Origin: Betaproteobacteria bacterium | GTDB taxonomy: Bacteria > Pseudomonadota > Gammaproteobacteria > Burkholderiales > SG8-39 | Direction: 5' to 3' | Length of the DNA: 64,000 bases | Assembly: GCA_947474715.1 (NCBI GenBank) | Contig: CANJJT010000002.1 | Coordinates: 47,500 to 111,499 of the forward strand | In this document: positions 5,138 to 45,751 of the stretch, piece by piece | Position numbering within the stretch: position 1 is the stretch's first letter | Layout: every line of letters begins with the position of its first letter | Program-made: the position numbers and the translations under genes | The notes under the pieces: model-generated | The model's database searches: none | The model's input: only the letters and a program-made list of their open reading frames with translations | Told to the model about the DNA's origin: nothing

Positions 5138-5199
5138 GGTTACTACCTCCATCAAGAGTTAAAGGACAACATTAGGAAACCCACCCGTGCGGGCATGGG

Positions 5200-32261: not shown

Positions 32262-34117
32262 GCAGTGCCAGCGAGGATCACCCCGTGACCGGCAGCCGCG
32301 GTTCGCTGTTTCGCAAGTACGCGGTCTATTTTCTTGCGCTGATGTTCGTCACCCTCGCCTCCAGCAGCGGCCTGGGGCTGTACTTCACCTATCAGGAAAG
32401 CAAGTCCGCCCTGCTCGACCTGCAGCAGGAAAAGGCCGCCGCCGCCGCCTCGCGCATCGAAACCTATGTCCGGGAGATCGAGCACCAGCTGGGTTGGGTA
32501 CGCCTCGGCCAGCCCGAGGGCAACCCCATCGAATCGCAGCGGATCGACTACCTCAAATTGCTGCGCCAGGTACCCGCCATCACCGAAGTGTCGCTGCTCG
32601 ACCGCTACGGCCGCGAGCAGTTGAAGGTGTCGCGGCTGGGCATGGACGTGATCGGCAGCAAGGAGGATTTTTCGCAGGACCCTAAGTTCACCGCCACGCG
32701 CAAGGGCAAGACCTATTTCAGCCCGATCTATTTCCGCAAGGACACCGAGCCCTACATGACGATCTCGGTCGCGGGAATCGGCAAAGCGGCCGGCATCACG
32801 GTCACCGAAGTCAACCTCAAATTCATCTGGGACGTGATCACCCGCATCCGCATCGGCGGCAACGGACTGGCCTATGCCGTCGATTCGCGCGGGCAGCTGA
32901 TCGCCCACCCGGACATCAGCCGCGTGCTGCAAAAGTCGGATCTCTCCGCCATGCCGCAGATCCAGGCCGCCATCGCATCCGGCGATCCAGCCACGTCGCG
33001 GCGCGTGAGCATTGCGCGGGACCTGAAGAACCAGGAGGTCCTCACCGCCCATGCCTCCATCCCGGAGCTGGGTTGGCATGTGTTCGCCGAACAGCCGCTG
33101 GCCGAGGCGCTGGGGCCGCTGTTCGCCTCGCTGCAGCGCACCGCCCTGCTGCTGCTGATGGGCCTGGTTCTGGCCGCCGCCGCCAGTCTATACGCGGCTC
33201 AGCGCATGGTGCGCCCGATCCAGGCCCTTCGCGCCGGCGCCGCCGAGATCGCCCGCGGCCATCTCAACCAGCGCATCGAGGTGCGCACCGGTGACGAGCT
33301 GGAAGCCCTCGGCGACGAGTTCAACAACATGGCCAGGCAGCTTCAGGAGTCCTATGCGGACCTGGAACGCAGGGTGCAGGAGCGCACGCGCGACCTGCAG
33401 ATCGCCAACCGCCACAAGACGGAGTTCCTGGCCAACATGTCGCATGAGCTGCGCACCCCGCTCAACGCCATCATCGGCTTTTCCGAAGTGCTCCAGGAGC
33501 GCATGTTCGGCGAGCTGAACGGGAAGCAGGCCGAGTACATCAACGACATCCACAGCTCCGGCCGCCATCTGCTCTCGCTCATCAACGACATCCTCGATCT
33601 GTCCAAGATCGAGGCCGGCCGCATGGAGCTGGAGATCACCACCTTTCACCTTCCCACGGCCATCGACAATGCGCTCACCCTGATGCGCGAGCGCGCCGGG
33701 CGCAATCACATCAATCTCAAGGCGGATGTCGACCCGGCGATCGAGGGCATCACGGCCGATGAGCGCAAGGTCAAACAGATCCTGCTCAACCTGCTATCCA
33801 ACGCGGTGAAGTTCACCCCTGAAGGCGGCCGGGTCGAGATCAACGCACGCCAGGACGAGCATCAGGTGGTGATTGCAGTGTCCGACACCGGCGTGGGCAT
33901 CGCGCCTGAGGACCACGAGGCGGTGTTCAAGGAGTTCCGTCAGGTAGGCGATGACTACACCCGTAAATCCGAAGGCACAGGCCTCGGCCTGACGCTCACG
34001 CGCCGCATGGTCGAGTTGCACGGCGGGACCATCACCCTGGAGAGCGCCCCCGGTCAGGGCTCGTGCTTCCGCTTCACCCTGCTGCGGCAGCCGTACGCCG
34101 CAGCAGCAACGGCATAG
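32258..34117 (+). CDS. Sensor histidine kinase (periplasmic Cache-like domain, HAMP, HisKA, HATPase)
   Basis: Two TM segments flank a ~270-aa sensor. HAMP (RPIQALRAGAAEIARGHLNQRIEVRTGDELEALGDEFNNMARQL), H-box FLANMSHELRTPLNAIIGFSE, G-boxes DTGVGI and GTGLGLT. Confidence 0.9.
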   Translation: MSSASEDHPVTGSRGSLFRKYAVYFLALMFVTLASSSGLGLYFTYQESKSALLDLQQEKAAAAASRIETYVREIEHQLGWVRLGQPEGNPIESQRIDYLKLLRQVPAITEVSLLDRYGREQLKVSRLGMDVIGSKEDFSQDPKFTATRKGKTYFSPIYFRKDTEPYMTISVAGIGKAAGITVTEVNLKFIWDVITRIRIGGNGLAYAVDSRGQLIAHPDISRVLQKSDLSAMPQIQAAIASGDPATSRRVSIARDLKNQEVLTAHASIPELGWHVFAEQPLAEALGPLFASLQRTALLLLMGLVLAAAASLYAAQRMVRPIQALRAGAAEIARGHLNQRIEVRTGDELEALGDEFNNMARQLQESYADLERRVQERTRDLQIANRHKTEFLANMSHELRTPLNAIIGFSEVLQERMFGELNGKQAEYINDIHSSGRHLLSLINDILDLSKIEAGRMELEITTFHLPTAIDNALTLMRERAGRNHINLKADVDPAIEGITADERKVKQILLNLLSNAVKFTPEGGRVEINARQDEHQVVIAVSDTGVGIAPEDHEAVFKEFRQVGDDYTRKSEGTGLGLTLTRRMVELHGGTITLESAPGQGSCFRFTLLRQPYAAAATA

Positions 34118-34128
34118 GGGAATCCACC

Positions 34129-34509
34129 ATGGCACAGAAGATACTCATCGTCGAGGACAATGAAAAGAACCGCAAGCTGGCACGCGACATCCTGCAGTAT
34201 CACGGCTTCGACATCCTCGAGGCGGACAATGCGGAGTCCGGGATAGAGATCGCCAATCGCGAGTCACCGGCCTTGATCCTGATGGACTTCCATCTGCCCG
34301 GCATGAATGGCATCGAGGCGCTGGCCGCACTGCGCTCGGGCGAGGCCACCAGGGGCATCCCGGTGATGGCCGTCACCGCCTCGGCCATGACCGAAGAGAG
34401 GGTGAAAATCATTGCCGCCGGCTTTGACGGGCTGCAGACCAAGCCGATTCACCTCAAGGAATTCGTGGAGGCGGTCAAGATCCTGGCAGCCAAGGGTTCG
34501 GCAAGATGA
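34129..34509 (+). CDS. Single-domain (CheY-like) response regulator
   Basis: MAQKILIVEDNEKNRKLARDIL..LILMDFHLPGMNG..VTASAM..KP; 126 aa. The stop overlaps the next start (ATGA). Confidence 0.9.
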   Translation: MAQKILIVEDNEKNRKLARDILQYHGFDILEADNAESGIEIANRESPALILMDFHLPGMNGIEALAALRSGEATRGIPVMAVTASAMTEERVKIIAAGFDGLQTKPIHLKEFVEAVKILAAKGSAR

Positions 34510-35647
34510 GCAGCCAGGCTTCGCAACCTGCCCCAGCGCGTCCATCAAGGATACTGGTCGTCGATGACACGCCCATGAATGTGAAGATGCTGGCCGACAT
34601 TCTGACCTTCCGGGGTTATCAGGTGCATACCGCGTCCGGCGGGCGCGAGGGCCTGCAGTCCATGGCGGAACACGCCCCGGACCTGGTGCTGCTGGACGTG
34701 ATGATGCCGGAGATGAACGGCTATGAAGTATGCAAAGCCATCCGCGCCGACCCGGCCACCGAAATGACCCCGTCGTGATGGTCACTGCGCTCGACCCCGC
34801 GCAGGAGCGGGTGAAGGGCATCGAGGCCGGTGCCGATGACTTTCTCAGCAAGCCCATCAACCAGGCCGAACTGCTGGCGCGCGTTCGCTCCCTGCTGCGG
34901 ATCAAGGCTTATCAGGACACCATCGCCGAGCAAGCGCGCGAACTGAAGGCCTGGAACGAGACCCTGGGGCAGCGCGTGCACCAGCAGGTCGCCGAACTCG
35001 AATCCCTGGGCCGGCTGAAGGGGTTTTTCTCTCCGGAACTGGCCCAGGCCATCGTGTCCGGTGGTGCCAATGAAATCCTCAAGCCGCATCGGCGCGAGAT
35101 CACCGTGCTGTTCCTCGACCTGCGTGGCTTCACCGCCTTTACCGAGTCGGCCGAGCCCGAGGAGGTGCTGGGCGCGCTCGCCCAGTATCACGAACTGGTG
35201 GGCAGCCTCGTGTCCCGGCACCAGGGCATGGTGGAGCACTTTGCGGGCGATGGCATGATGATCTTCTTCAACGATCCGATACCGCTGCCGGATGCACCGG
35301 CCCAGGCTGCCACCATGGCCCTCACGCTGACGGAGCGCTTCGCGTCGCTGCGCACCGCCTGGCGCCGGCAAGGCCACGAACTGGACCTTGGCATCGGCAT
35401 GGCCGTGGGTTACGCCACCCTGGGGGCCATCGGCTTCGAAGGCCGGCGCGAGTACGCCGCCATCGGCAGCGTGAACAATCTCAGCGCTCGTCTGTGCAGC
35501 GAGGCGCAGGGCGGACAGATACTGACCAATCTGAAAACCCTGAACCGGATCGAGGACGTGGTACTCGCCGAACCCGTGGGCGAGCGTATCCTGAAAGGCT
35601 TTGCCCAGCCGGTATCCCTATTCAATATCACCGGACTGCGGGGCTGA
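34506..35647 (+). pseudogene. Response-regulator receiver fused to a class III adenylate/guanylate cyclase, interrupted as sequenced by a 1-nt frameshift near 34768-34771
   Basis: Frame 1 gives [49 protein letters not shown]. The next frame continues [29 protein letters not shown], a coiled coil, then the cyclase core ([51 protein letters not shown]). Confidence 0.85.
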
Positions 35648-35768: not shown

Positions 35769-36818
35769 ATGAGCATCCACACCATCAAACCCGCTGACTG
35801 GATGGACGACGACTGGGAGCGCTCGCAGGCCGCGCTCGAGGGCATGGGCGACGGACTGCCGCTGGTGGTGCCCACCCCCGCCCGGGTGGAAGCCATGCTG
35901 AAGGCAGTGGGCGCCAATGGCAGCGAGGCGATCGCCGTGCTGGCCCCGGCCTTCGGCGAGGCCACCTGGCGCAATGTCGCCGAGAACGCCGTGATGGCGG
36001 GCTGCCTGCCTGAATACCTGCCGGTGGTCGCCGCCGCTGCAGCGGCAGTGGCGAAGGATGAATACAACCTGCTCGGCATCCAGACCACCACCGGCAATGC
36101 CGCGCCCATGCTCATCGTCAACGGCCCTGTCGCCCTGCGCATCGGCATGAATGCCGCCGGCAATGCGCTCGGGCCGGGCAACCGCGCCAACGCCACCATC
36201 GGCCGCGCCCTGCGCCTGGTGCTGCAGAACGTCGCCGGTGCCAAGCCGGGCGAGATGGACATGGCCACCCTTGGGCATCCGGGCAAGTACACCTGCGCCT
36301 TTGCCGAGAACGAAGCCGCCAGCCCCTGGCCGCCTTTCCACACCACGCGCGGCTACACCCGCGAGCAGAGCGTGGTCACCGTGCTGGGCTGCTCCGGCTT
36401 CATCGAGGTGGTGGACTCCACCAGCGCCAAACCGGAAGACCTGATCCGCACCTTTGCCAGCTCCATGGTGTTCGCCGGCAGCGTCGGCCAGACCGGCATC
36501 GTCGCCAGCGGCCAGCCCCTGCTGATCATGCCGCCCGAACACGCCGAGCATTTCCACCGCGAAGGCTGGTCACGCGAGGACGTGCAGGCCGCGCTGCTGC
36601 GCGAAGCCACGCTGCCGCTGGAACGGCTGTCGCCCGCGGTGCGGCAACGCATCACCGAACATCGCGCCAGTACCGGCGAGGACATCGGCGCGCCGGTGCA
36701 TATCGCGCACGAGGCGAAGGACATCCTCATCGTCGTCGCGGGCGGCCCCGGCGTGAAGGCGGCCTATGTGCCGACCTGGAGCGGGTCGAAGGCCGTGAGT
36801 CAGCTGATCCGCACGTGA
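35769..36818 (+). CDS. Conserved protein of unknown function; paralog of the C-terminal domain of the UGSC fusion protein
   Basis: 349 aa from ATG 35769 (AGGAAGGGAAG upstream). Shares the blocks NAVMAG, LLGIQTTT, GRALRLVLQNVAGAKPGEMDMATLGHPGKYTC..AENE, PPEHAEH and ILIVVAGGPG with 42425-43500 (minus strand). Confidence 0.8.
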   Translation: MSIHTIKPADWMDDDWERSQAALEGMGDGLPLVVPTPARVEAMLKAVGANGSEAIAVLAPAFGEATWRNVAENAVMAGCLPEYLPVVAAAAAAVAKDEYNLLGIQTTTGNAAPMLIVNGPVALRIGMNAAGNALGPGNRANATIGRALRLVLQNVAGAKPGEMDMATLGHPGKYTCAFAENEAASPWPPFHTTRGYTREQSVVTVLGCSGFIEVVDSTSAKPEDLIRTFASSMVFAGSVGQTGIVASGQPLLIMPPEHAEHFHREGWSREDVQAALLREATLPLERLSPAVRQRITEHRASTGEDIGAPVHIAHEAKDILIVVAGGPGVKAAYVPTWSGSKAVSQLIRT

Positions 36819-36926
36819 TGCATGCCGGGATACGCGCCGAACCCGGGCAGTGAAGCCGATAAAATCTGGCGCAATATAGTGCGTCGGCGTGCGCTAATAG
36901 AACGCCTCCCACTTCGGAGAATCCCC

Positions 36927-37913
36927 ATGACCACCCCATCCCGAACCCTCCTGCAGGCCACGCTGGGCGCAGCCGTTGCCAGCGGGATCCTCACCGCCCC
37001 CGCCCACGCTCAGACCGGCTATCCCAATCGCCCGGTGCGCGTGGTGGTGCCCTTCGTGCCCGGCGGCAGTACCGACATCATCGGCCGCACGGTGGCGCAG
37101 AAGCTGAGCGAGGCCTGGGGCCAGTCGGTGCTGGTGGACAACCGCGGCGGCGGGGCGACCATCATGGGCACGGAGATCGTGGCCAAGGCGCCCCCTGACG
37201 GCTACACGCTGCTGATCGCCTCGGCTTCCTTCACCACCAAAATGAGTCTGGTGGACAAGCTCCCCTACGACACGCAGGCCGACTTCACGCCAATCACCCT
37301 GATCAACACCACGCCGCTGGTGCTGGTCGTGTCGCCCAACAGCCCGGCGAAGACGGTGAAGGACCTGATCGCGCTGGCAAAGGCCAAGCCCGGCCAGTTG
37401 AATTACGGGTCGTCAGGGATGGGCGGGTCCAACCACCTGTCAGGGGAATTGTTCGCCGCCATGGCCGGCATCCAGGCCTCGCATGTGCCCTACAAGGGCA
37501 ATGCGCCGGCGCTCACCGACCTGATGGGCGGCCGCGTTGATTTCATCTTCAATGGCGCCACCGCCGTGATGCCGCTGGTCAAGGCGGGCAAGCTGCGCGC
37601 CCTGGGCGTGACCAGCCGCGAACGCGCGGGCGCGGCGCCGGACCTGCCCACCATGGACGAATCCGGACTCAAGGGCTATTCGGCCGTGGCCTTCAATGGC
37701 ATCGTCGCTCCGGCCAGGACGCCGCGGGACATCATCGCCAGGATCAATGCCGATGCGGTGAAAGGCATCCAATCCGCCGATACCCGCGAGCGCCTGAAGG
37801 CCGACGGCTCCGACCCGGTGGGCAGCACGCCCGAACAGTTCGCCGCCTTCCTCAAGGAGGAGATGGGCAAGTGGGCGAAGATCATCAAGGACAACGGGAT
37901 CAGAGGCGAGTGA
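36927..37913 (+). CDS. Bug-family substrate-binding protein, no. 4
   Basis: AQTGYPNRPVRVVVPFVPGGSTDI..LNYGSSGMGGSNHLSGELF..VPYKGNAPALTDLMGGRVD. Confidence 0.9.
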   Translation: MTTPSRTLLQATLGAAVASGILTAPAHAQTGYPNRPVRVVVPFVPGGSTDIIGRTVAQKLSEAWGQSVLVDNRGGGATIMGTEIVAKAPPDGYTLLIASASFTTKMSLVDKLPYDTQADFTPITLINTTPLVLVVSPNSPAKTVKDLIALAKAKPGQLNYGSSGMGGSNHLSGELFAAMAGIQASHVPYKGNAPALTDLMGGRVDFIFNGATAVMPLVKAGKLRALGVTSRERAGAAPDLPTMDESGLKGYSAVAFNGIVAPARTPRDIIARINADAVKGIQSADTRERLKADGSDPVGSTPEQFAAFLKEEMGKWAKIIKDNGIRGE

Positions 37914-38081
37914 GGCTGGCGCACGGCCTGCGGTAATCGGCGCAGTGATGGTTACGGCGCCCCGCAAGGCAGCGCAGACACTGCGCAAGCGTTGAAACCC
38001 GGAAATGATTCCAAGCCCTAGTAATATGATCAATTAGAGATCATATCTTCTGTGTTTATTACGTCTACATAAGCATTGTGA

Positions 38082-38492
38082 TCACGGCTCCGGGGTGCCG
38101 GTGTCCTGGGTGCCCAGCGCTATGCCCGCCCGCGCAGCAGCAGCCAGGGCCTGGTATCTGACCTTGAAGGCGTCCAGAGTTTCTTCCTCCAGTTCTTCCA
38201 GGTCGAGCAGGGCGTTGTGCGCGCCACGGGTGGCGCGTATCAGCTCGTCGAGCTTGAGCTGTATCGCCTCGGTGTCGCGGTTCTGGGTGTTCTGGATGAG
38301 AAAGACCATGAGGAAAGTGACGATGGTGGTGCCGGTGTTGATGACCAGTTGCCAGGTGTCGCTGAAACCGAAGACCGGTCCGGTAATGACCCAAACGATG
38401 ATGATGGCCACGGCAAAGGTGAACATGGGCGGGCGGCCGCAATAGCGGGAGGCGGTCTTGGCCAGGCCTGAGTACAGCGCGGTGGGTTTCAT
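38082..38492 (-). CDS. Low-affinity iron permease family (Fet4-like, PF04120-type) membrane protein
   Basis: FTFAVAIIIVWVITGPVFGFSDTWQLVINTGTTIVTFLMVFLIQNTQNRDTEAIQLKLDELI is the family core. Start at MKPTALYS (38492). Confidence 0.8.
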   Translation of the reverse strand: MKPTALYSGLAKTASRYCGRPPMFTFAVAIIIVWVITGPVFGFSDTWQLVINTGTTIVTFLMVFLIQNTQNRDTEAIQLKLDELIRATRGAHNALLDLEELEEETLDAFKVRYQALAAAARAGIALGTQDTGTPEP

Positions 38493-38517
38493 GGGCGAAC
38501 TCCAGTCTGAAGAAACG

Positions 38518-38612
38518 CTGATCAAGTATCGAACGAGGATAGCCGTTGAAATGTTTCCTCTGAAGTAGGAGATATACAAGGGGACCTAGCCCACTTGTTC
38601 AGTCCTTCCCTG
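38518..38612. repeat. ~95-bp dispersed repeat, copy B (leader-like element)
   Basis: Homologous to 21716-21810. The core again ends exactly 25 nt from a minus-strand ATG (38492). Its distal 27 nt supply the last codons and the stop of the upstream DinB-like gene. Confidence 0.8.
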
Positions 38613-39425
38613 GGCGCGTCCCTGCGTGTAACGGCTGCCCGGCGCTGGCGGCACCCGCGGCGGGCCGGCAAAGCACTGGGCATTGGCCATCCAGTTCGCG
38701 GCAACTTCGCCGGACACCTGCAAGCGGGTGTCGGCGACGTTGCGCGTCTGCGCCACCACCTGGCAGAACTCGCTGGCGGAACCGGCGATACATTCTGCTG
38801 CAGGCGCCGTGCCGGGCCACTCCCAGGCCTTGCCCGAAGGCGCGACCAGGCTGACGGTGGGACGTTCCGCCGGCACCGGCAGACCACGGTTGGAGAAGCT
38901 CCAGCCGAAGGTGTTCACGCCCAACGTGGCGATGTGGTGGATGCGGTCGGTGTCCTCGCGCCCCACGCCCAGCAGGTCGTAGATCTCCTGGCCGTGAGCC
39001 CAGGTCTCCATGAGCCGCGCGCTGATGCTGGAGCGTGCACTCATGTCCCGCCCGGCCCAGGGCACGCGCTGCCTGGGATCGGCCTCTGCGAAGGCCGCCA
39101 CCAGCGCCAAATACTGCGCATGCCACCGGGCCAGCAGCTCGCGGCCGGTGATGTTGCCGATGCTGTGGTGCTGCAGGGTGAGGTTGCTGGCACCGGTCTG
39201 GCGCGCCACCTGCGCGCGCTCCTGCCGGGTCTTCAGGTAGGCATCGCGATCGGTGAGTGACACCAGGGCCGAGATATTGCCGCTGTGCAGGTGGGCCATG
39301 ACGTCATTGATGGTCCAGCCATTGAACTGCGTGGGCTCGGCCCATGCGCCGTCCGTGAGCGGCTGGAGCAGTCGGTACAGGGCCTCGCTCTCCTCGCCGA
39401 ATGCCGCGCTCTCTGCTGCAAGCAT
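38586..39425 (-). CDS. DinB-like / mycothiol-maleylpyruvate-isomerase N-terminal domain protein (TIGR03084-like)
   Basis: Start at MLAAESAAFGEESEALYRLL. WTINDVMAHLH..SARLMETWAHGQEIYDLLG..SASEFCQVVAQTRNVADTRLQVSG. The longer 425-aa ORF N-terminus (Arg/Pro-rich) was rejected. Confidence 0.75.
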   Translation of the reverse strand: MLAAESAAFGEESEALYRLLQPLTDGAWAEPTQFNGWTINDVMAHLHSGNISALVSLTDRDAYLKTRQERAQVARQTGASNLTLQHHSIGNITGRELLARWHAQYLALVAAFAEADPRQRVPWAGRDMSARSSISARLMETWAHGQEIYDLLGVGREDTDRIHHIATLGVNTFGWSFSNRGLPVPAERPTVSLVAPSGKAWEWPGTAPAAECIAGSASEFCQVVAQTRNVADTRLQVSGEVAANWMANAQCFAGPPRVPPAPGSRYTQGRAQGRTEQVG

Positions 39426-39661
39426 GTTTCCTCCTCCGGGCTGATGGTTGTCGCGGGTGTGGCTGTCGCGCTTATGGTCACGCACGCGCTGATCAAGTTC
39501 AAGGCATGCCCATGATCGGGAAAGCCTGCCTCTGACGTGGGGCAGGCCCCAAGGGGATCGTGTCCCTCTTTGATCAATACTTCGTCCTGACTGGCCGGGG
39601 CAGTGTAGCCCTCTTGCAGCGGGCCATGCTTCCCCGGACAGTGGACGTCCGAAGCGCCGCT

Positions 39662-40069
39662 TCAATCCCCGCGCCTGAAGCGCTCCAGCTCGCGCCGGTC
39701 GCGTTTGGTGGGACGACCGGGCACCACCGGCTGGGGGCCGGACTTGCGCATGGCGATCAGGGTCTTGCGCCGCTCGATGCTCTGCTCGCTTTCTTCGTAC
39801 AGGCGTGCCGCCTCCACTGCCGGGCCGCGCTGGTCGGACAGGGCACGCACCTGGATCTGCCACACCAGTTCTCCGGCGCGGATTTCGATCTGGTCACCCG
39901 GTTTGAGTTCACGCGCCGGCTTGACGCGATCACCCGCCACCCGCACACGCCCCGCCTCCACGGCCTGCGCCGCCAGGCTGCGCGTCTTGAAAAAGCGCGC
40001 AGCCCATAACCACTTGTCGATGCGCAGGCGGCCAAGTCCGGCATCGGCTGCGCTGTTGGTGTGCTTCAT
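39662..40069 (-). CDS. hslR: Heat-shock protein 15-like RNA-binding S4-domain protein
   Basis: LRIDKWLWAARFFKTRSLAAQAVEAGRVRVAGDRVKPARELKPGDQIEI S4 domain with a basic C-terminal tail. Confidence 0.8.
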   Translation of the reverse strand: MKHTNSAADAGLGRLRIDKWLWAARFFKTRSLAAQAVEAGRVRVAGDRVKPARELKPGDQIEIRAGELVWQIQVRALSDQRGPAVEAARLYEESEQSIERRKTLIAMRKSGPQPVVPGRPTKRDRRELERFRRGD

Positions 40070-40249
40070 CAGCTCTCCGCTTTACGCTTTCCGCGCTGCA
40101 CATGGCAGGCGGCAAATGTTTTCAGATCGGTAATAGTTGGCATGGTGCCGGGCTGCTTCCATCTTATGCTGACATCATGAAATCGGCAGCAGGCCGCGCA
40201 CCGACCACAGACGCAGCAAAAAAGCCGCACCACAAAGTCAGGATGCACC

Positions 40250-40951
40250 ATGACACGCCCGCAATCCATCCCCCATGGCGGACTGATTTCCCGCAAGGTC
40301 GAGGAGATCAACGAAGTCCTCAACGCCCTGCTGGAAGAGGAGCAGTCCGTCACCACCATCCTGGACAAGGAAGGCACGGCCTTCAGCTCGCAACTGGTGT
40401 TCATCGACCCGCAACGGCACTATATCTGCCTCGCCCTGTCGGCCAATCCGCAGGCCAACGCCTCGCTGCTGGCACGCCCGCGCGCGAGCTTCATCTCGGC
40501 CTCGCCGCACTGGCACCACGAATTCGTGGCGGCCGAACCATGCCGATCCGAACTGCTGGGCGAACCGGTGATACGCATGGCCTTTCCCAGTGTCGTGGTC
40601 AGCCAGGAACGGCGCCGTGTCGAACCGCGTGCCGAAGCCCCGGGCCCCTTCATGCTGAAGTGCCTGGCCGACGCGCGCGGCATTGCCCCTTTCGAGGGTG
40701 ACATCATCGACATCAGCCATCGCGGCATTGGTTTTCTGCTCTACCAGGTGGACATCACGCTGGAGCCGGGCACGGTGCTGCACGGCTGCCGCATCGAGCG
40801 CGCCGGCGAAGCGCCCATCTCGGTGGACCTGGAAGTCCGCTATTCCACCAGCGTGCCCCTGCCCAACGGCGGCTACGCGCACCGCTCCGGCTGCCTGTTC
40901 CTCAATCCCACGCGGCGCGTGACCGAACTGATCGAGGCCTTCAACGCCTGA
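40250..40951 (+). CDS. YcgR-like PilZ-domain (c-di-GMP binding) protein
   Basis: YcgR-type N-domain, then PilZ motifs QERRRVEPR and DIIDISHRGIGF (RxxxR ... D/NxSxxG). Confidence 0.75.
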   Translation: MTRPQSIPHGGLISRKVEEINEVLNALLEEEQSVTTILDKEGTAFSSQLVFIDPQRHYICLALSANPQANASLLARPRASFISASPHWHHEFVAAEPCRSELLGEPVIRMAFPSVVVSQERRRVEPRAEAPGPFMLKCLADARGIAPFEGDIIDISHRGIGFLLYQVDITLEPGTVLHGCRIERAGEAPISVDLEVRYSTSVPLPNGGYAHRSGCLFLNPTRRVTELIEAFNA

Positions 40952-41004
40952 GGCAGGCGGGTGGCGTTCCGTCACCGGGATCATGTGCAAACGGTCTCGC
41001 CGCG

Positions 41005-41994
41005 TTACTCCCCGACGATCCCCAGGTCGGTGATCAGCTTGCCCCAGGCAGCCCGCTCCGACTGCAGGAAGGCGGTCAGTTGCTCCGGTGTGCCGCCGGT
41101 CACTTCCAGCCCCAGCTTCTCCGTCTGCGCCCGGTAGGACGGCTTGTTCACCGCGGCATTGCCCGCGGCATTCATGCGCGAAACGATGGCGGTCGGCAGC
41201 CTGGCTGGCGCGACGATGCACCAGAAGGTGTAGGTGGTGAAGCCCTTCAATCCGGCCTCGGTGAAGGACGGCACATCAGGCAAGGCTGCAACACGCTTGT
41301 CCGAAGAAATGGCGAGGATACGCAGCTTGCCTGAACGCACCTGCTCCGACAGTTGCAGCGGATGGCCGAAGGTCATGTGGATCTGCCCGGCGAGCAGGTC
41401 GGTGAGCGCAGGACCGGTGCCCTTGTAGGGAATGTGCACCAGGTGGATGCCCGCCATGTGCTCGAACATTTCGCCGGCCAGGTGACTGCCGGTGCCCACG
41501 CCGGCGCTGCTGTAGTTGAACCTGCCCGGCCCGGCCTTGGCGAGCGCAATGAACTCACGCAGGTTCTTTGCCGGCACCTGCGGATTCACGTACAGGGCCA
41601 GGCCGTTGCGCGTGAGATTGACCACCGAGGTGAAATCCCGGTCCGGGTCATAGGGCAGGGTCTTGCCGGCGTTCTTCGCCAGATAGGGTGCCGAAATCAG
41701 GCTGCCCGCCGCACCGAACAGGAAGGTGTAGCCATCGGGTGTGGCGCGCGCCACCAGTTCCGAGCCGACCGATCCGCCTGCGCCAGGCCGGTGCTCCATC
41801 AGCACCGACTGCCCGAGTTCCGTCGTCAGCAGGTCCACCACGGGACGCATCACCACGTCGCCGATGCCACCGGCGGCAAAGGGCATGACGATGCGCACCG
41901 GCTTCTGCGGCCAGGTCTGGGCCTGTGCGGGCTGCAGTGCTGCGAGGCTGAGTGCGAGGACGGCGAAGGCGCTGCGGATGTGGATGCGGGTCAT
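41005..41994 (-). CDS. Bug-family substrate-binding protein, no. 5
   Basis: Start MTRIHIRS (AGGAGGAAGC upstream). AQTWPQKPVRIVMPFAAGGIGD..FNYSSAGVGTGSHLAGEMF..IPYKGTGPALTDLLAGQIH. Confidence 0.9.
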   Translation of the reverse strand: MTRIHIRSAFAVLALSLAALQPAQAQTWPQKPVRIVMPFAAGGIGDVVMRPVVDLLTTELGQSVLMEHRPGAGGSVGSELVARATPDGYTFLFGAAGSLISAPYLAKNAGKTLPYDPDRDFTSVVNLTRNGLALYVNPQVPAKNLREFIALAKAGPGRFNYSSAGVGTGSHLAGEMFEHMAGIHLVHIPYKGTGPALTDLLAGQIHMTFGHPLQLSEQVRSGKLRILAISSDKRVAALPDVPSFTEAGLKGFTTYTFWCIVAPARLPTAIVSRMNAAGNAAVNKPSYRAQTEKLGLEVTGGTPEQLTAFLQSERAAWGKLITDLGIVGE

Positions 41995-42230
41995 GCTTCC
42001 TCCTGTTTCATTGCATGGGCAAAGTCCCTGCCCCTTGTTCAAATCACGCCTGCGAAATCCTCCGCTCGCGCTTGCGCGCGAGCCACCCCCTTGGACAAGG
42101 CTCTTCACCGATTTCCGGAGGAATGAACTGCGCTCCAGGATGAGTCAATACACCGCGTCTTTATCCTGAAAGGTACCTTTTCGGTGCCTGTAAATTGCGA
42201 CTTGAGCATTGCTGAACACTGTGAATCCCC

Positions 42231-42318
42231 GGCGTCATCCCCGTGGAAACGGGGATCCAGTGTCTCTCGCCTGAACAAAACTGAAGACACTGGATTCCCG
42301 CTTTCGCGGGAATGACGG
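42231..42318. repeat. Inverted pair of ~33-bp REP-type units
   Basis: GGCGTCATCCCCGTGGAAACGGGGATCCAGTGTC, a 21-nt spacer, then GACACTGGATTCCCGCTTTCGCGGGAATGACGG. Spurious ORFs through it give the VIPAKAGIQ / RGNDG-type peptides common in betaproteobacterial REPs. Confidence 0.75.
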
Positions 42319-42350
42319 TATTGGGAATAGAACTCCCCGGAAACGTTAAA

Positions 42351-42373
42351 AAACCTTTGACAAGGGGGTTAAC
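42351..42373. repeat. Solo (degenerate) copy of the MITE terminal hairpin
   Basis: AAACCTTTGACAAGGGGGTTAAC. Confidence 0.6.
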
Positions 42374-42424
42374 ACTGCGCGGCAGCACGGTGCGAACGCT
42401 TTCACAGCGTACCGCCCCATACCC

Positions 42425-44065
42425 TTACTTGAAATCCCCCGGCAGCCATGGGCTGCCATCGGGTTTCAGTACTGCCCTGGTCACCGAGCGCGTGCCGCCG
42501 AAGGTGGGGACGTACATGGAGTGTTTGCCGGTGCCGCCGGCCACCACGATCATGAAATCCTCCCAGCGTTGCGCCAGCGGTACACCGGTGTCCAGCGGCC
42601 GGTCCTTGAAGCGCTTGGGCAGGTAACGGCGCAGGCGGCGCTCGATCTGCTCGGCCGAAAAATGCGACAGCGGGATGCGCGCGTCCTCGTAGAAGGCACG
42701 CCGCACATCGTCCTTGGAGTAGCCATCCTTGGCGATGGTCCCGGCATGCTCGGGCCCGAGCAGCACCAGTGGTTCGCCAGCATGGTTGACGTTGTTCTGC
42801 CCGGTCTCGGTGATGGTGTGACCGATCATGGTCAGCAGGCCGCCGGCATTGGTGCTGTCGTGGTCGTTGATGTTGTGCGGGGCTTCCGCACCGATCATGG
42901 TCACGGTGCTCACCTCAGGCGCAAAGCCGCGCTCGGCGCGCAGCGACGGCCAGGTGGCCGGCAGCGCCGCCTCGTTCTCGGCAATGCAGTAGGTGTACTT
43001 GCCCGGATGACCCATGGTGGCCTTGTCCATCTCCACCGGCTTGGCGCCACCGATATTGAGCAGGATGAGGCGTATGGCGCGCCCCACCACGCCATTGGAC
43101 CAGGGGCCGGGGCCGAACAGGCCGCTGCCCGAATGAATGCCCAGGGTCTCGGCCAGCGGTCCGCTCACCAGCATCAGCGGCGCCACGCAGTGCGTGGTGC
43201 CCTGGATGCCGTAGAGATTGAACTGTTCCTCGACCATGCCCTGCACCGCGGCGATGATGAGCGGCATGTGCTGCGGCTTGGCACCGGCCATCACCGCATT
43301 GGCAGCGATGCATTCGATGGTGGCCACTCCCATCTTGGGCGCCATCACGGCCACCACATGGCTGCCCGGGTAACCGGAGGCCTGCACCATGGCGCTGACA
43401 CGCGCCTCGGTGGGCGGCGCGGCCAGCATGCCATCGCTCCAGCCGCGCGCCATGAATTCCTGTTGCAGCGCGCCCCATTCGTCGCTGATGTCCAGATCCA
43501 CCCATTCGCTGCGCACCTTGACCTCTTCCACCAGCGGGGCCGGCAGCGGCGAGGTGAGCTTGGCGATGAGTTCCTCGTAGACCGCGTCGATCTTCGCGAT
43601 CACATTGGGCACCGGCAGGCCGCCCAGCGGGTGCGGCATGATCGCCGCCTGCAGGTTGGGCAGGCCGAACACGCGCGACTGGTTGCGCGCCAGCGCCGTG
43701 AAAGGCGTGGTCATCAGCAGCACGGCGGGTACGCCGCGCTTTTCCATCTCTACGGCGTCGTGGACACTCCACGACGTGCAGGAGCCTCAGTCGCCGAAGC
43801 CGGTGATGACGACGTCGCAGTTATCCTGCAGGGATTGCAGCATCGCCGGGGTGGCCGGCATGGAGGCGGCGTTCTTGGAGACGTAGTGGCTCTGCATGCC
43901 CGGGAAGCTCTCGCGCAGGCGACGGTCGAGGTGCTCCATGACGCGGTCAGCCGGGGGCTTGGTGTTGTCGAGAAAACCGATGCGCAGACCCTGCAGCGAC
44001 TTCGGCCGTGCCACCGCAGTAACTTTCGAGGGCTGTAACTGCGCCTCGGGTGAACAGATTCTCAC
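42425..44065 (-). CDS. Putative selenoprotein: UGSC-motif domain fused to a ~350-aa domain of unknown function (in-frame UGA at 43787-43789 read as Sec)
   Basis: GTG start at 44065 with AAGGAG 5 nt upstream. ...DVVITGFGD-TGA-GSCTSWSVHDAVEMEKRGVPAVLLMTTPF... is continuous in one frame, 546 aa in total. A SECIS-like hairpin lies 10 nt 3' of the TGA. The ORF track splits it into 43787..44065 and 42425..43747. Confidence 0.7.
43756..43776 (-). promoter_or_regulatory. SECIS-like stem-loop
   Basis: The mRNA reads UGA-GGCUCCUGCA-CGUCGUGG-AGUGU-CCACGACG: a perfect 8-bp stem and a 5-nt loop containing GU, starting 10 nt after the UGA. Confidence 0.6.
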
Positions 44066-44205: not shown

Positions 44206-45423
44206 TCAGGCCACCTTCCGCACCGCCGGCCGGTCGGCACGGCCGGTGAGTTCCGGGTCGACATGGCGTAGCAGCACGCTGGAATCGATTTCATCCACGG
44301 TGTTGCAGCCGATCTGGCCCATGGTGCGCGTGATTTCCTCCCGGTACAGCTGCAGCGCGCGAGAGGCGCCCGCGTAACCGGCTGCGGCCGTGCCAAACAA
44401 CGTGCCCCGTCCGACCAGCACCAGGTCCGCGCCCATGGCCAGGGCCTTGACGATGTCGGTGCCGCGGCGAAAGCCGCTGTCCACGATCACCGTGGTCTTG
44501 TGGCCCACCGCCTTGATGATGGAGGGCAGCACCTCGATGGGCGTGGGCGCCGAATCGAAATTGCGCCCGCCGTGGTTGGACACGATGACGCCGTCGGCGC
44601 CCTGCTCCAGGGACATCTCGGCATCGTCCGGATGCAGGATGCCCTTCACCAGCAGCTTGCCCGGCCACATGTCGCGCAGGGCCTTCAGGTCTTCCCAGTT
44701 GAGCGTGTCATTGCGCGTCTCGCCGCCATTGCCGTATTCGGAGGTAATGCGGCCGCGCAGTTCGGCCGGAAAATTCTCCCGCTGCGGCATGCCACCGTTG
44801 GCGATGTAGCGGCCCAGGCAGCCCAGCATCCAGCGTGGGTGGGTGAGCACATCCAGGGTGTTCTTGCGGTTGTAGCTGAAGGGCACGGAAAAGCCGTTGC
44901 GCCGGTTGTACTCGCGGTTGCCCGCCACCGTGCCGTCCACCGTCACCAGCAGCGCCTCGAAGCCGGCGGCGGCGGCGCGCTTGACCAGCTGGTGGGAGAG
45001 CGAGCGGTCCTTCCACATGTACAACTGCATCCACAGCGTGCCGCCCACCTCGTCACGGATCTGCTCCATGCTGGTGATGGAGCCAGTGGCCAGGGAGAAC
45101 GGAATGCCGGCATCGCGCGCGGCCTTGGCCAGCTCGAGCTCGCCCTTGTACCACATCATCCCGGCCACGCCGGTGGGGGCGATGGCGATGGGCATGTTGA
45201 TCGGCTTGCCGAAGATGGTGGTCTTGGGGCTGCGCTTGGACACATCGCGCAGCATGCGCGGCACCAGGCGGATGTTGTCGAACACCTCGCGGTTGTGGCG
45301 CAGGATCACTTCGTCTTCAGTGCCGCGGTCGACGAATTCGAACAGCCACTTGGGCAGGCGCTGCTTGGCCATGTCACGCAGGTCAAATATGTTCTGTGCA
45401 TCTGCCGGATCAGGAAAAAACAT
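44206..45423 (-). CDS. FMN-dependent alpha-hydroxy-acid dehydrogenase (L-lactate / mandelate dehydrogenase-like)
   Basis: Start MFFPDPADAQNIFDLRDMAKQRLPKWLFEFVDRG (GGAGG 5 nt upstream). VIVSNHGGRNFD and DSGFRRGTDIVKALAMGA motifs. The upstream 262 codons of the 667-aa ORF were rejected. Confidence 0.88.
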   Translation of the reverse strand: MFFPDPADAQNIFDLRDMAKQRLPKWLFEFVDRGTEDEVILRHNREVFDNIRLVPRMLRDVSKRSPKTTIFGKPINMPIAIAPTGVAGMMWYKGELELAKAARDAGIPFSLATGSITSMEQIRDEVGGTLWMQLYMWKDRSLSHQLVKRAAAAGFEALLVTVDGTVAGNREYNRRNGFSVPFSYNRKNTLDVLTHPRWMLGCLGRYIANGGMPQRENFPAELRGRITSEYGNGGETRNDTLNWEDLKALRDMWPGKLLVKGILHPDDAEMSLEQGADGVIVSNHGGRNFDSAPTPIEVLPSIIKAVGHKTTVIVDSGFRRGTDIVKALAMGADLVLVGRGTLFGTAAAGYAGASRALQLYREEITRTMGQIGCNTVDEIDSSVLLRHVDPELTGRADRPAVRKVA

Positions 45424-45751
45424 GGCCCCTCCTAGGTCATTGATAGTCGGTGAGACGCCGGGCGGGTGGTTCTGCTGCCACCGCGGGCCGCAGGCGTCCT
45501 TCTGGTCCTTCGAGTCCTTCGTCCTGGGCCGCTTTCCCCGTTGCCGCCACATCACCGTCACAGGGTCGCCGCCGCAGGGCGTAATTGTGCGCCTATTTTC
45601 AGACAGGCCGAAATGGCGGGCGCCCCTCTGGCCGGCACGCCGTCCACAACGCCGGGAAGACCTGCCCTTGTCCTGTCTTTGTCGTGCCCTTTGAGCAGGA
45701 TCAATACCCCGGGCCCGCGGCGGGTTAGGGTCATCGGGAAGGAAGAACACC

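What the first reader, a model, noticed from the sequence alone, without database searches (positions are those of the whole stretch)
35769..44065. An uncharacterised ~350-aa domain occurs twice (stand-alone and fused to the UGSC domain), each copy followed by a Bug-family binding protein
The protein at 35769-36818 and residues ~190-546 of the UGSC fusion share long collinear blocks. These include NAVMAG; L(L/Y)GIQ(T/G)TT; GRA(L/I)RL(V/I)L(Q/L)N(V/I)(A/G)GAKP.EMD.AT(L/M)GHPGKYT..AENEA; PEHA; and I(L/M)IVVAGG.G. I cannot assign these blocks to any family I know. In both loci the next gene on the same strand is a Bug (TctC-like) binding protein (36927-37913 and 41994-41005). A Cys next to the HPGKYT block (KYTC / KYTYC) is kept in both copies and could partner the U/C of the UGSC domain; that point is inference only. 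Fusion in one copy and separation in the other is a Rosetta-stone type link between the UGSC redox domain, this domain, and a carboxylate delivered by a TTT system.
Basis: partly seen in the sequence, partly recalled or inferred. Interest (0 to 1): 0.65.

Follow-up and report, generated by a model that had tools for sequence, protein, structure and literature searches.

The report
Partner domain of UGSC selenoproteins, 41 copies
The unknown 350-residue domain is the regular partner of the selenium-containing UGSC protein, a common aquatic protein of unknown function, and this lake bacterium carries 41 such pairs, most beside carboxylate-binding proteins.

Summary
The product of 35769-36818 and residues 186-546 of the TGA-read-through product of 42425-44065 are 38% identical over 352 residues (E 1e-79). 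A TctC/Bug gene follows each copy. The domain, here called X, matches no Pfam or NCBIfam model and no PDB sequence.

The window shows only two of 44 copies in this genome. Forty-one sit beside or are fused to a UGSC domain, and every one of those has an in-frame TGA. In 301 genomes of the same order, X was found in 29 and UGSC in 28, all 28 among the 29. X and UGSC also pair across many phyla.

UGSC is a distant relative of the selenocysteine core of GrdB/PrdB reductase subunits.

My best reading is a two-part selenol/thiol reductase in which X holds the substrate.

The Bug link is real here (33 of 44 against 19% of controls). It is confined to Betaproteobacteria-type loci and shows no co-diversification.

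The "stand-alone" copy belongs to a clade without UGSC. It is not a split form.

This scan has already noted the X-UGSC pairing on other DNA.

The parts
35769..36818 (+). Stand-alone copy of domain X (349 aa). It is the only full-length copy in the genome without an adjacent UGSC gene, and it belongs to a UGSC-less clade.
   Evidence: Translation. No Pfam, NCBIfam or PDB match. X profile hit at 519 bits. No U partner. Clade support 0.998.
36927..37913 (+). Bug/TctC-family periplasmic binding protein, 108 nt downstream of the stand-alone X.
   Evidence: PF03401, 256.4 bits.
42425..44065 (-). UGSC-X fusion selenoprotein gene (546 aa with U93). Ordinary ORF calling splits it at the TGA.
43541..44065 (-). 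UGSC domain (residues 1-175) with the D-U-G-S-C-T motif.
   Evidence: PF24696 161 bits and NF041046 128.8 bits. Weak TIGR01917 (GrdB) match over residues 79-149.
43787..43789 (-). In-frame TGA read as selenocysteine (U93).
   Evidence: The same position is TGA in 41 of 41 UGSC domains of the genome.
43756..43776 (-). SECIS-like hairpin: 9-bp stem and 3-nt loop, starting 10 nt after the TGA.
   Evidence: Sequence. Fold. The stem starts 10-11 nt after the TGA in 30 of 41 paralogs. Stems of 6 bp or more occur in 39 of 41, against 60 of 205 control windows.
42425..43510 (-). Domain X of the fusion (residues about 186-546). It carries the column-177 Cys but has Ala in place of the NAVMAGC Cys.
41005..41994 (-). 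Bug/TctC-family binding protein, 431 nt downstream of the fusion.
   Evidence: PF03401, 234.2 bits.
44206..45450 (-). FMN-dependent alpha-hydroxy-acid dehydrogenase family gene, 140 nt upstream of the fusion on the same strand. This is local context and does not recur at other modules.
   Evidence: PF01070, 435.7 bits. No recurring enzyme neighbour was found.

Best explanation
**What it is.** Domain X is the obligate partner subunit, often fused, of the UGSC selenoprotein. Together they form a two-part selenium-dependent redox enzyme.

**Proposed division of labour.**
- UGSC supplies a selenocysteine nucleophile and, in most members, a resolving cysteine three residues on (U-x-x-C). This resembles the Sec-bearing core of the GrdB/PrdB "selenoprotein B" subunits of glycine, betaine, sarcosine and D-proline reductases, to which UGSC is distantly related.
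- X plays the part that GrdE/PrdA plays there: it binds and activates the small-molecule substrate. X is not related to GrdE/PrdA, and there is no evidence that it carries a pyruvoyl group.

**Proposed cycle.**
1. The selenol attacks the substrate held on X.
2. A selenenyl-sulfide forms with the resolving Cys of UGSC. In members that have Ser there, it may form with a Cys of X.
3. The reduced product leaves.
4. The Se-S bond is re-reduced by a thioredoxin-type donor. In some members this donor is fused to the N-terminus of X or encoded next door as a TrxR-like flavoprotein.

**In this genome.** The unit has multiplied to 41 distinct paralogs. Most lie beside a Bug/TctC binding-protein gene, which suggests many different organic-acid substrates.

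**Status of each step.**
- Shown: the pairing, the TGA and hairpin, the Sec machinery, the expansion, the Bug adjacency, the Trx-fold fusions.
- Supported by weak homology: the relation of UGSC to GrdB/PrdB.
- Inferred: complex formation, the reductase chemistry, the nature of the substrates.

**Confidence by layer.** X as the standing partner of UGSC, about 0.9. The reductase mechanism with X as substrate holder, about 0.45 (the figure given as overall confidence). Organic acids from the TTT system as substrates here, about 0.4.
For: **Pairing**
- The genome has 44 X hits and 41 UGSC hits.
- They form 25 fusions, 10 split U>X pairs and 6 split X>U pairs.
- In 9 of the 16 split pairs the second gene's start overlaps the first gene's stop (ATGA or GTGA). 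Four more have a 2-nt gap.
- In 80 loci from other genomes, 74 of 82 judgeable X copies have UGSC within 900 nt on the same strand. The phyla include Chloroflexota, Methylomirabilota, Binatia, Acidobacteriota, Bacillota and a haloarchaeon.
- In 301 genomes of the order, X is in 29 and UGSC in 28, and all 28 are among the 29.

**Selenocysteine**
- 41 of 41 UGSC domains have TGA at U-G-x-C.
- Distinct stem sequences occupy the same place (GTCGTGGA/TCCACGAC, GCCCGC/GCGGGC, GGCGGC/GTCGCC, GTCGAGC/GCTCGAC).
- selB, selA, selD and tRNA-Sec are all present.
- In other genomes, 70 of 75 UGSC domains have Sec, 4 have Cys and 1 has neither.

**Relation to GrdB/PrdB**
- Of 30 UGSC domains, 18 hit TIGR01917 (best E 1.1e-5), 14 GrdF, 10 TIGR01918, 8 GrdH and 6 PrdB.
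- hhalign against a PF07355-family alignment from this genome's own homolog gives probability 45%, E 2.2e-4, over 86 columns. It places U-x-x-C on C-P-x-C and LEkxGIpTV on LEAxGIaTV.

**Redox relay**
- X carries an N-terminal CPTC extension at C27.
- Redoxin/AhpC-TSA hits occur in 4 of 5 long forms tested. Only L098 is above Pfam's cut-off.
- The Atlas lists structural neighbours with AhpC-TSA/Redoxin fusions.
- A TrxR-like flavoprotein gene lies 134 nt downstream of a fusion.

**The redox residues of UGSC are the better kept ones.** They are invariant in alignment A2 (30 of 30), while the Cys of X are lost in some clades.

**Bug adjacency**
- 33 of 44 modules, against 19.3% of controls.
- 76 Bug genes among 263 neighbours, against 33.4 expected (p 2.5e-13).

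**Precedent in print (passages read)**
- PrdA/PrdB mechanism: PMC11229817.
- GrdB/GrdE homologs proposed for C-F cleavage, and diversification of substrate-specific protein B: PMC10838667.
Against: - The GrdB/PrdB relation is weak.
  - NCBIfam scores are far below the curated cut-offs (about 17 bits against 602).
  - PF07355 does not hit any UGSC domain at E <= 0.01.
  - The hhalign probability is only 45%.
- X shows no similarity to GrdE/PrdA (PF09338) or to the PF07355 family.
- No pyruvoyl-forming residue is universally kept in X. The column-177 Cys is present in 98 of 126.
- No enzyme neighbour recurs that would name a pathway.
  - In this genome, CoA-transferase III (p 0.18) and MmgE/PrpD (p 0.065) are not significantly enriched.
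  - In other phyla the commonest neighbour families reach only 3-4 of the 98 ORFs scanned.
- Bug genes are so numerous here (about 540-560) that adjacency is partly background.
- X and adjacent Bug paralogs do not co-diversify.
- A UGSC clade with U-G-x-S lacks the resolving Cys.
- No fold, no expression of protein and no activity has been shown.
Confidence: 0.45

Rival explanations
1. X is a Cys-based enzyme in its own right, using the NAVMAGC Cys and the GKYTxC Cys. It becomes oxidised in each turnover. UGSC is only its dedicated redoxin, an electron relay like thioredoxin for methionine sulfoxide reductase or arsenate reductase.
For: - Two well-kept Cys in X: 122 of 126 and 98 of 126, with both present in 98 of 126.
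- Trx-fold domains fused to X.
- A UGSC clade without the resolving Cys would need a thiol from X.
Against: - The Cys of X are dispensable in whole clades. The window's own fusion lacks the first. Seventeen fusions of the CTPAV type lack the second, and one copy lacks both.
- Sec and its partner Cys are invariant in 30 of 30 aligned UGSC domains.
- Sec is usually kept where it performs the chemistry itself (general knowledge, not tested here).
Confidence: 0.25
2. The pair is a non-reductive enzyme, such as an isomerase, racemase or lyase. Sec would act as a transient nucleophile or base, as the Cys of maleate isomerase does, with no net electron input.
For: - No dedicated electron donor is encoded at most modules.
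- Neighbours such as MmgE/PrpD and CoA-transferases are non-redox organic-acid enzymes.
Against: - The U-x-x-C spacing is typical of redox-cycling motifs.
- Trx-fold fusions and TrxR-like neighbours recur.
- UGSC resembles reductase subunits.
Confidence: 0.12
3. The pair is a stress or detoxification protein, for example a peroxidase or an electrophile reductase, and not a catabolic enzyme. The Bug adjacency would then be background in a genome packed with Bug genes.
For: - Most selenoproteins with a UxxC motif are described as thiol oxidoreductases (PMC2398784 and PMC13188914, passages).
- There is no co-diversification with Bug.
- There are about 540-560 Bug genes in the genome.
Against: - Forty-one distinct paralogs, 25-78% identical to each other, fit substrate diversification better than a single defence role.
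- Adjacency to Bug is about four times background.
Confidence: 0.08
4. The TGA codons are ordinary stops. The "UGSC" N-terminal pieces and the downstream ORFs would be separate or decaying genes.
For: Public gene calls mostly start after the TGA, giving products of about 430 aa.
Against: - 41 of 41 TGA codons sit at the same motif position, and the frame stays open after each.
- The hairpin is conserved at a fixed distance.
- The full Sec machinery is present.
- Cys occupies the same column in Natrialba and Sphingomonas homologs.
- A contig from an RNA library bridges the TGA.
Confidence: 0.02

Closest known systems
UGSC-containing selenoprotein family (Pfam PF24696, NCBIfam NF041046), including the "UGSC/Unknown_1 fusion" of Zhang and Gladyshev 2008 (PMC2398784, passages read; Fig. 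S1A not seen because supplements are closed)
   Same: The N-terminal 175 residues of the fusion are a member, above both curated cut-offs. A fusion of UGSC to a conserved unknown domain is already in print. [quoted passage not shown]
   Different: The paper gives no function and calls UGSC Trx-like. From what I could read, it does not report the near-obligate pairing, the split and reversed gene orders, the Trx-fold fusions, the link to GrdB/PrdB, or expansions to dozens of copies. I could not confirm that Unknown_1 is X.
D-proline reductase PrdA/PrdB (PMC11229817, passages read)
   Same: A small Sec subunit (PrdB, U151) is encoded beside a larger substrate-binding partner and forms a complex with it. 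Sec attacks the bound substrate, and the oxidised enzyme is re-reduced by a separate electron carrier. Six of 30 UGSC domains hit the PrdB model weakly.
   Different: The partner here is unrelated to PrdA, since PF09338 finds nothing. No universally kept Cys or Ser could yield a pyruvoyl group. I did not look for a PrdH-like maturase. The host has haem-copper oxidases and comes from lake water, so it is not a Stickland fermenter.
Glycine/sarcosine/betaine reductase protein B (GrdB/F/H with GrdE) and the proposed fluoroacetate reductase FarB/FarE (PMC10838667, passages read)
   Same: Substrate-specific Sec subunits diversify by duplication. The U-x-x-C core aligns with UGSC. Transporter genes lie next to each substrate-specific set.
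   Different: UGSC is about 170 residues against about 430 for GrdB. The scores are far below family cut-offs. I did not search for GrdA, GrdC or GrdD.
Thioredoxin-dependent reductases with fused or dedicated redoxins (methionine sulfoxide reductases, arsenate reductase); recalled, not tested
   Same: A catalytic Sec or Cys, a resolving Cys, and re-reduction by a Trx-fold domain that is sometimes fused.
   Different: No sequence relation of X to these families was found in Pfam or NCBIfam.

Membership tests
UGSC family (PF24696 / NF041046) | Match to the family models above the curated cut-offs | tested here: met
   PF24696 161.1 bits (cut-off 25). NF041046 128.8 bits (cut-off 125)..
UGSC family (PF24696 / NF041046) | U/C-G-S-C motif with Sec encoded by in-frame TGA, followed by a SECIS-like hairpin, in a genome with Sec machinery | tested here: met
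   U93 in D-U-G-S-C. Hairpin 10 nt after the TGA. selA, selB, selD and tRNA-Sec present.
GrdB/PrdB selenoprotein B family (PF07355, TIGR01917, TIGR01918, TIGR04483) | Match to the family models above the curated cut-offs | tested here: not met
   TIGR01917 gives 14-17 bits against 602. PF07355 hits no UGSC domain at E <= 0.01 in the genome. UGSC is therefore not a member, only a distant relative.
GrdB/PrdB selenoprotein B family (PF07355, TIGR01917, TIGR01918, TIGR04483) | Sec/Cys-x-x-Cys redox motif in the homologous position | tested here: inconclusive
   hhalign puts U-x-x-C on C-P-x-C of the genome's own PF07355 family, but at probability 45%, E 2.2e-4. I did not check the alignment against a Sec-bearing GrdB.
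GrdB/PrdB selenoprotein B family (PF07355, TIGR01917, TIGR01918, TIGR04483) | Adjacent pyruvoyl proenzyme partner GrdE/PrdA (PF09338) | tested here: not met
   PF09338 finds no gene in the genome. The only hit is 9.6 bits, E 0.56, inside a UGSC domain.
Pyruvoyl proenzymes (X considered as a PrdA/GrdE analogue) | A universally kept Cys or Ser at a self-cleavage site | tested here: not met
   The column-177 Cys is present in 98 of 126. It is Val, Ala or Leu in the rest, including 17 CTPAV-type fusions. Cleavage itself cannot be tested with these tools.
Bug / TctC binding proteins (PF03401), for the two downstream genes | Match above the curated cut-off | tested here: met
   256.4 and 234.2 bits (cut-off 27).
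Thioredoxin-fold (Redoxin PF08534 / AhpC-TSA PF00578), for N-terminal extensions of some X proteins (not the two window copies) | Match above the curated cut-off, and a CxxC motif | tested here: inconclusive
   L098 is above the cut-off (41.2 bits). L081, L094 and L096 are below it, and L107 has no hit. The C27 copy has CPTC. The two window copies have no such extension.

The most novel reading that the evidence does not exclude
UGSC plus X is a very large, unrecognised class of two-component selenoenzymes. A minimal GrdB/PrdB-like Sec module works with a partner of new fold and without a pyruvoyl cofactor. The enzymes carry out thiol-driven reductive cleavage or reduction of many different organic acids in oxygen-respiring freshwater and soil bacteria. 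Lineages such as this one carry more than 40 substrate-specific paralogs. That would put aerobic Burkholderiales among the most selenoprotein-rich organisms known, and would make selenium a broad requirement for carbon turnover in lakes.
Probability: 0.3. Interest if true: 0.85.

Novelty: new variant of a known kind. Interest (0 to 1): 0.72.

Why it matters
**An old open question.** UGSC has been listed among the most abundant selenoprotein families of aquatic metagenomes. The GOS survey counted 255 Sec sequences, and UGSC was the top family in several non-marine samples (PMC2398784, passages). A 2026 review still lists it with selenoproteins whose "biological functions remain largely uncharacterized" (PMC13188914, passage).

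**What this adds.** UGSC comes with one fixed partner domain, and its Sec core resembles the substrate-specific subunits of Stickland-type reductases. Together these turn the open question into an experiment. Express one module, identify the ligand of the neighbouring Bug protein, and look for thiol-dependent turnover.

**Size of the selenoproteome.** The copy number is notable in itself. There are 41 UGSC genes plus a Sec-type selD in a genome that is 82% complete. The same review gives the record bacterial selenoproteomes as 57 and 63 genes, and says the richest organisms are predominantly anaerobes. This genome encodes two haem-copper oxidases, and its DNA is found in lake-water samples.

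**Cultured handles.** Cultured carriers exist for genetics: Robertmurraya sp. 2P01SA (Sec form) and Natrialba asiatica DSM 12278 (Cys form).

Tried and rejected
**Remote homology of X led nowhere.**
- Pfam and NCBIfam on single proteins.
- Pfam on all 40 alignment members at E <= 10. Only PF24696 tails appeared, in 3 members.
- PDB by sequence and by profile at E <= 10.
- The Atlas restricted to named clusters gave no usable hit.
- hmmsearch with the X profile, filters off, against my 3650 crude gene calls. The best non-family hit had E 0.61.
- hhalign of X against the PF07355 family.
- PF09338 on the genome.

**PDB search with UGSC** found only chance-level hits, with E >= 0.18.

**X as a pyruvoyl proenzyme cleaved at the T-C or x-C next to GKY.** PrdA's T420/C421 site suggested this. 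I rejected it as a general mechanism, because the Cys is missing in 28 of 126 copies.

**A P-loop reading of VVAGGxGK.** Rejected by eye. The spacing does not fit a Walker A motif, and the Lys is absent in the stand-alone copy.

**Bug and U-X duplicating as one unit.** Not supported. Mantel r was -0.075, with 4651 of 5000 permutations at or above it. In 7 of 32 modules the closest X paralog also has a close Bug.

**A recurring pathway neighbour.**
- In this genome none beyond Bug was significant. Two apparent families were antisense ORFs over the modules.
- In non-Betaproteobacteria loci I scanned only the first 98 of 197 neighbour ORFs. The top families reached only 3-4 members.

**Expression.**
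- RNA-library runs held only 6-12% of the sampled words.
- When laid, their contigs covered parts of the fusion. One 151-nt contig with no mismatch bridges the TGA.
- Such libraries can contain DNA, and contigs show neither strand nor level. I count this as a weak hint only. Uncovered parts mean nothing.

**Literature.**
- The source of the "63 selenoprotein" Methylomirabilota MAG (reference 66 of PMC13188914) was not found in the library. It may bear on UGSC expansions.
- Searches for UGSC, PF24696 and NF041046 and for selenoprotein with tripartite tricarboxylate found no paper that gives UGSC or X a function.
- Subscription journals are not covered, and supplements were closed. Fig. S1A of PMC2398784 may show that Unknown_1 is X.

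**Unused or limited tools.**
- Fold search could not be used, because there was no model.
- In one search only 6 candidates per genome were scored, and only 11. Copy numbers from those calls are therefore capped.
- The Bug count rests on my own jackhmmer profile (542 hits). It agrees with PF03401: 559 first-look candidates, of which 150 were scored and all 150 matched.

Full report
**1. The observation**

Read with TGA as selenocysteine, 42425-44065 (-) is one open frame of 546 residues with U93 in the motif D-U-G-S-C-T. 35769-36818 (+) encodes 349 residues. The two share 134 of 352 identical residues (38%, E 1e-79), over residues 9-347 of the small protein and 186-532 of the fusion.

Residues 4-171 of the fusion match Pfam PF24696 (UGSC, 161 bits) and NCBIfam NF041046 (128.8 bits, cut-off 125). 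The ~350-residue part, which I call X, matches nothing:
- nothing in Pfam or NCBIfam;
- nothing in PDB sequences at E <= 10, by single sequence or by a 40-member profile;
- nothing in Pfam when each of 40 family members is scanned at E <= 10.

Both downstream genes are TctC/Bug family (PF03401, 256 and 234 bits).

**2. The selenocysteine reading**

The TGA is at 43787-43789. Ten nucleotides after it comes a 9-bp stem with a 3-nt loop, at 43756-43776.

The genome (4.72 Mb, 190 contigs, 82% complete) encodes the Sec machinery:
- selB (394 bits), directly downstream of another UGSC-X fusion on contig C54;
- selA (579 bits), with tRNA-Sec beside it on C8;
- selD, itself carrying an in-frame TGA.

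**3. The window shows 2 of 44 copies**

A profile of X finds 44 matches in the genome. PF24696 finds 41, each with exactly one TGA inside. My own six-frame analysis gave three results.
- All 41 TGAs lie at the same U-G-[SGA/R]-C position.
- The stem starts 10-11 nt after the TGA in 30 of 41. Stems of 6 bp or more occur in 39 of 41, against 60 of 205 control windows from the same genes.
- Several different stem sequences occupy the same place.

The architectures are as follows.

| Form | Count |
|---|---|
| In-frame U-X fusions (two cut by contig ends) | 25 |
| Split pairs, UGSC gene first | 10 |
| Split pairs, X first | 6 |
| Contig-end fragments without visible UGSC | 2 |
| Full-length X with no UGSC | 1 (the window's 35769-36818) |

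In 9 of the 16 split pairs the second start codon overlaps the first stop (ATGA or GTGA). Four more have a 2-nt gap. That is typical of subunits made in equal amounts.

The X paralogs are 25-78% identical to each other. They are therefore distinct genes and not assembly duplicates.

**4. The pairing is general**

X is a very large family. The sources give no name beyond "hypothetical protein".

A scan of one genome per species found 596 loci. Of these, 80 were fetched, from:
- Burkholderiales and other Proteobacteria;
- Methylomirabilota/Rokubacteria;
- Chloroflexota, Binatia, Acidobacteriota, Actinomycetota and Myxococcota-type MAGs;
- Robertmurraya sp. 2P01SA, a Sphingomonas MAG and Natrialba asiatica DSM 12278.

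In these loci, 74 of 82 judgeable X copies have a UGSC domain within 900 nt on the same strand, either upstream or downstream. Of 75 UGSC domains there, 70 have TGA, 4 have Cys (Natrialba and Sphingomonas among them) and 1 has neither. A small clade reads U-G-x-S and lacks the second Cys.

In an even sample of 301 genomes of the order, X occurs in 29 and UGSC in 28, and all 28 are among the 29. One of the positives, G227, is unpublished. Kin are not independent: the positives fall in 14 and 13 of 143 genera.

All 10 other sampled genomes of the window's genus carry X, with 2 to 35 matches each. Another family of the order carries 20.

**5. What UGSC resembles**

Of 30 diverse UGSC domains, several weakly hit models of the Sec-bearing subunits of Stickland-type reductases.

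| Model | Members hitting (of 30) | Best E |
|---|---|---|
| TIGR01917 (GrdB) | 18 | 1.1e-5 |
| NF040794 (GrdF) | 14 | 5.6e-4 |
| TIGR01918 | 10 | 4.5e-4 |
| NF040795 (GrdH) | 8 | 6.8e-4 |
| TIGR04483 (PrdB) | 6 | 7.8e-4 |

In the window's domain the matched stretch is residues 79-149, which contains the Sec.

The genome has one true PF07355 (GRDB) family gene, a Cys form with N-C-P-V-C. Its relatives are named [quoted passage not shown] or "PrdB" by their sources. A profile-profile comparison of UGSC with that family gives probability 45%, E 2.2e-4, over 86 columns. It places U-x-x-C on C-P-x-C and LEkxGIpTV on LEAxGIaTV.

This is consistent, repeated and weak. UGSC is not a member of the GrdB/PrdB family, since its scores are far below the cut-offs. 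It looks like a reduced relative of the family's redox core.

X has no detectable relation to GrdE/PrdA (PF09338) or to PF07355.

**6. Other redox hints**

- One X of this genome (C27) has a 157-residue N-terminal extension with C-P-T-C, and a UGSC gene follows it.
- Long X forms in other phyla carry Redoxin/AhpC-TSA-like N-termini. This holds for 4 of 5 tested, with L098 above Pfam's cut-off.
- The ESM Atlas lists structural neighbours of X in clusters with AhpC-TSA/Redoxin and with UGSC. Its own model of X has pTM 0.91.
- A TrxR-like flavoprotein gene lies 134 nt after the C27 fusion. Two of the four genome members of that family are near modules (p 0.028).

**7. Conserved residues of X**

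- Across 126 copies, the Cys of NAVMAGC is kept in 122 and the Cys after GKY(T/S)x in 98. Both are present in 98, and one copy has neither.
- The window's fusion lacks the first Cys. The stand-alone copy has its second Cys shifted by one position.
- In the stand-alone copy's own clade (118 relatives) the two Cys are kept in 115 and 113.
- By contrast, Sec/Cys and the second Cys are invariant in the 30-member UGSC alignment.
- Invariant polar residues of X in alignment A1 include T107, T108, N141, R146, N154, D164, K173, E180 and D318. No His or Cys is invariant, so a classical metal site is unlikely. That last point is inference.

**8. The Bug link**

The genome is extraordinarily rich in TctC/Bug genes. 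My profile finds 542 hits. PF03401 gives 559 first-look candidates, of which 150 were scored and all 150 matched.

Even against that background the modules are enriched.
- 33 of 44 have a Bug gene within 400 nt, against 19.3% of 3125 other genes.
- 76 of 263 genes within 5 kb are Bug, against 33.4 expected (p 2.5e-13).

Three points limit the link.
- Pairwise distances of X paralogs and of their adjacent Bug paralogs are uncorrelated (Mantel r -0.075).
- Bug genes occur in only 27 of the 80 loci from other genomes. All 27 are Betaproteobacteria-type by label or gene content.
- Elsewhere the neighbours are varied: MFS, SBP_bac_5, CoA-transferase III, MmgE/PrpD and DUF6282, each in 3-4 of the 98 ORFs scanned.

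The core unit is therefore U+X. The Bug association is a lineage-specific layer. It fits organic-acid substrates but does not prove them.

**9. The stand-alone copy**

In a tree of 126 X sequences it falls in a clade of 7 with support 0.998. Four of its members were judged to have no UGSC gene of their own, and one lies at a contig end. One is followed by a UGSC that belongs to the next X.

In L031 and L034 a member of this clade lies directly beside a complete U-X module. In L029 it lies 1.4 kb from one. In the window it lies 5.6 kb from the fusion. It may work with a UGSC encoded by a neighbouring module. That is a guess.

**10. Expression and habitat**

The DNA is held by lake-water and freshwater metagenomes of several studies. 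Contigs from four metatranscriptome libraries match parts of the fusion at 95-100%. One 151-nt contig without mismatch spans the TGA. This is a weak hint only.

The genome encodes two COX1-family oxidases.

**11. Print and earlier notes**

- Zhang and Gladyshev 2008 reported a "UGSC/Unknown_1 fusion" and ranked UGSC among the commonest aquatic selenoproteins (PMC2398784, passages; the figure is in a closed supplement).
- A 2026 review still lists UGSC without a function, and gives 57 and 63 genes as the largest bacterial selenoproteomes (PMC13188914, passages).
- An older survey gave 39 (PMC5029168, passage).
- Mechanistic precedents are PrdA/PrdB (PMC11229817, passages) and FarB/FarE (PMC10838667, passages).
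- This scan has already noted the X-UGSC pairing in at least ten other windows of other genomes. My results agree with those notes and were obtained independently, before I read them.
- One note, about a TrxB-like flavoprotein, led me to annotate the C27 neighbour.

**12. Verdict**

The finding is real and larger than stated. I place the claims at these levels:
- X is the standing partner of UGSC: about 0.9.
- The pair is a thiol/selenol-cycling reductase with X as the substrate-holding part: about 0.45.
- Its substrates here are organic acids brought in by the TTT system: about 0.4.

Noticed in passing
whole genome G000 (window examples 36927-37913 and 41005-41994): About 540-560 TctC/Bug-family genes in a 4.72-Mb genome that is 82% complete. 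That is roughly one gene in seven by my crude gene call (460 of 3650). PF03401 gives 559 first-look candidates, and all 150 that were scored match at 225 bits or more.
   Followed up: partly
window 42287-42320: A roughly 30-nt hairpin (GGATTCCCGC TTTC GCGGGAAT) lies between the fusion and its Bug gene. It is matched by many unrelated contigs in four RNA libraries, with differing flanks on both sides. It looks like a dispersed REP-like or terminator repeat.
   Followed up: no
G000:C54:3257-6823: selB lies directly downstream of a UGSC-X fusion on the same strand. The fusion's X match ends at 5198 and the selB match starts at 5152.
   Followed up: no
G000:C24:11438-12469 (L109:939-1970, minus strand): A Cys-type (N-C-P-V-C) member of the GRDB/PrdB family (PF07355, 26.4 bits) in this oxidase-bearing genome. 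Its close relatives are widespread in Burkholderiales and are named PrdB or selenoprotein B family by their sources. I did not examine its partner or context.
   Followed up: partly
G000:C26:2950-3873: selD itself carries one in-frame TGA, so it is a Sec-type SelD.
   Followed up: no
loci L047, L054, L065, L066, L067: A UGSC sub-clade reads U-G-(T/S)-S in place of U-G-S-C. It keeps Sec, or Cys in L066, but lacks the resolving Cys. Their X partners keep both Cys.
   Followed up: partly
L033, L047, L065: Three MAG contigs labelled Streptomyces or Streptomycetaceae. Two of them (L033, L065) carry Bug genes together with Burkholderiales-like X copies, so the taxon labels of these bins look doubtful.
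   Followed up: no
window 31251-35647: Directly upstream of the stand-alone X lies a sensor kinase, CheY and receiver-cyclase cassette. The last gene, 34730-35647, matches Guanylate_cyc and Response_reg. I found no evidence that it is linked to X.
   Followed up: no
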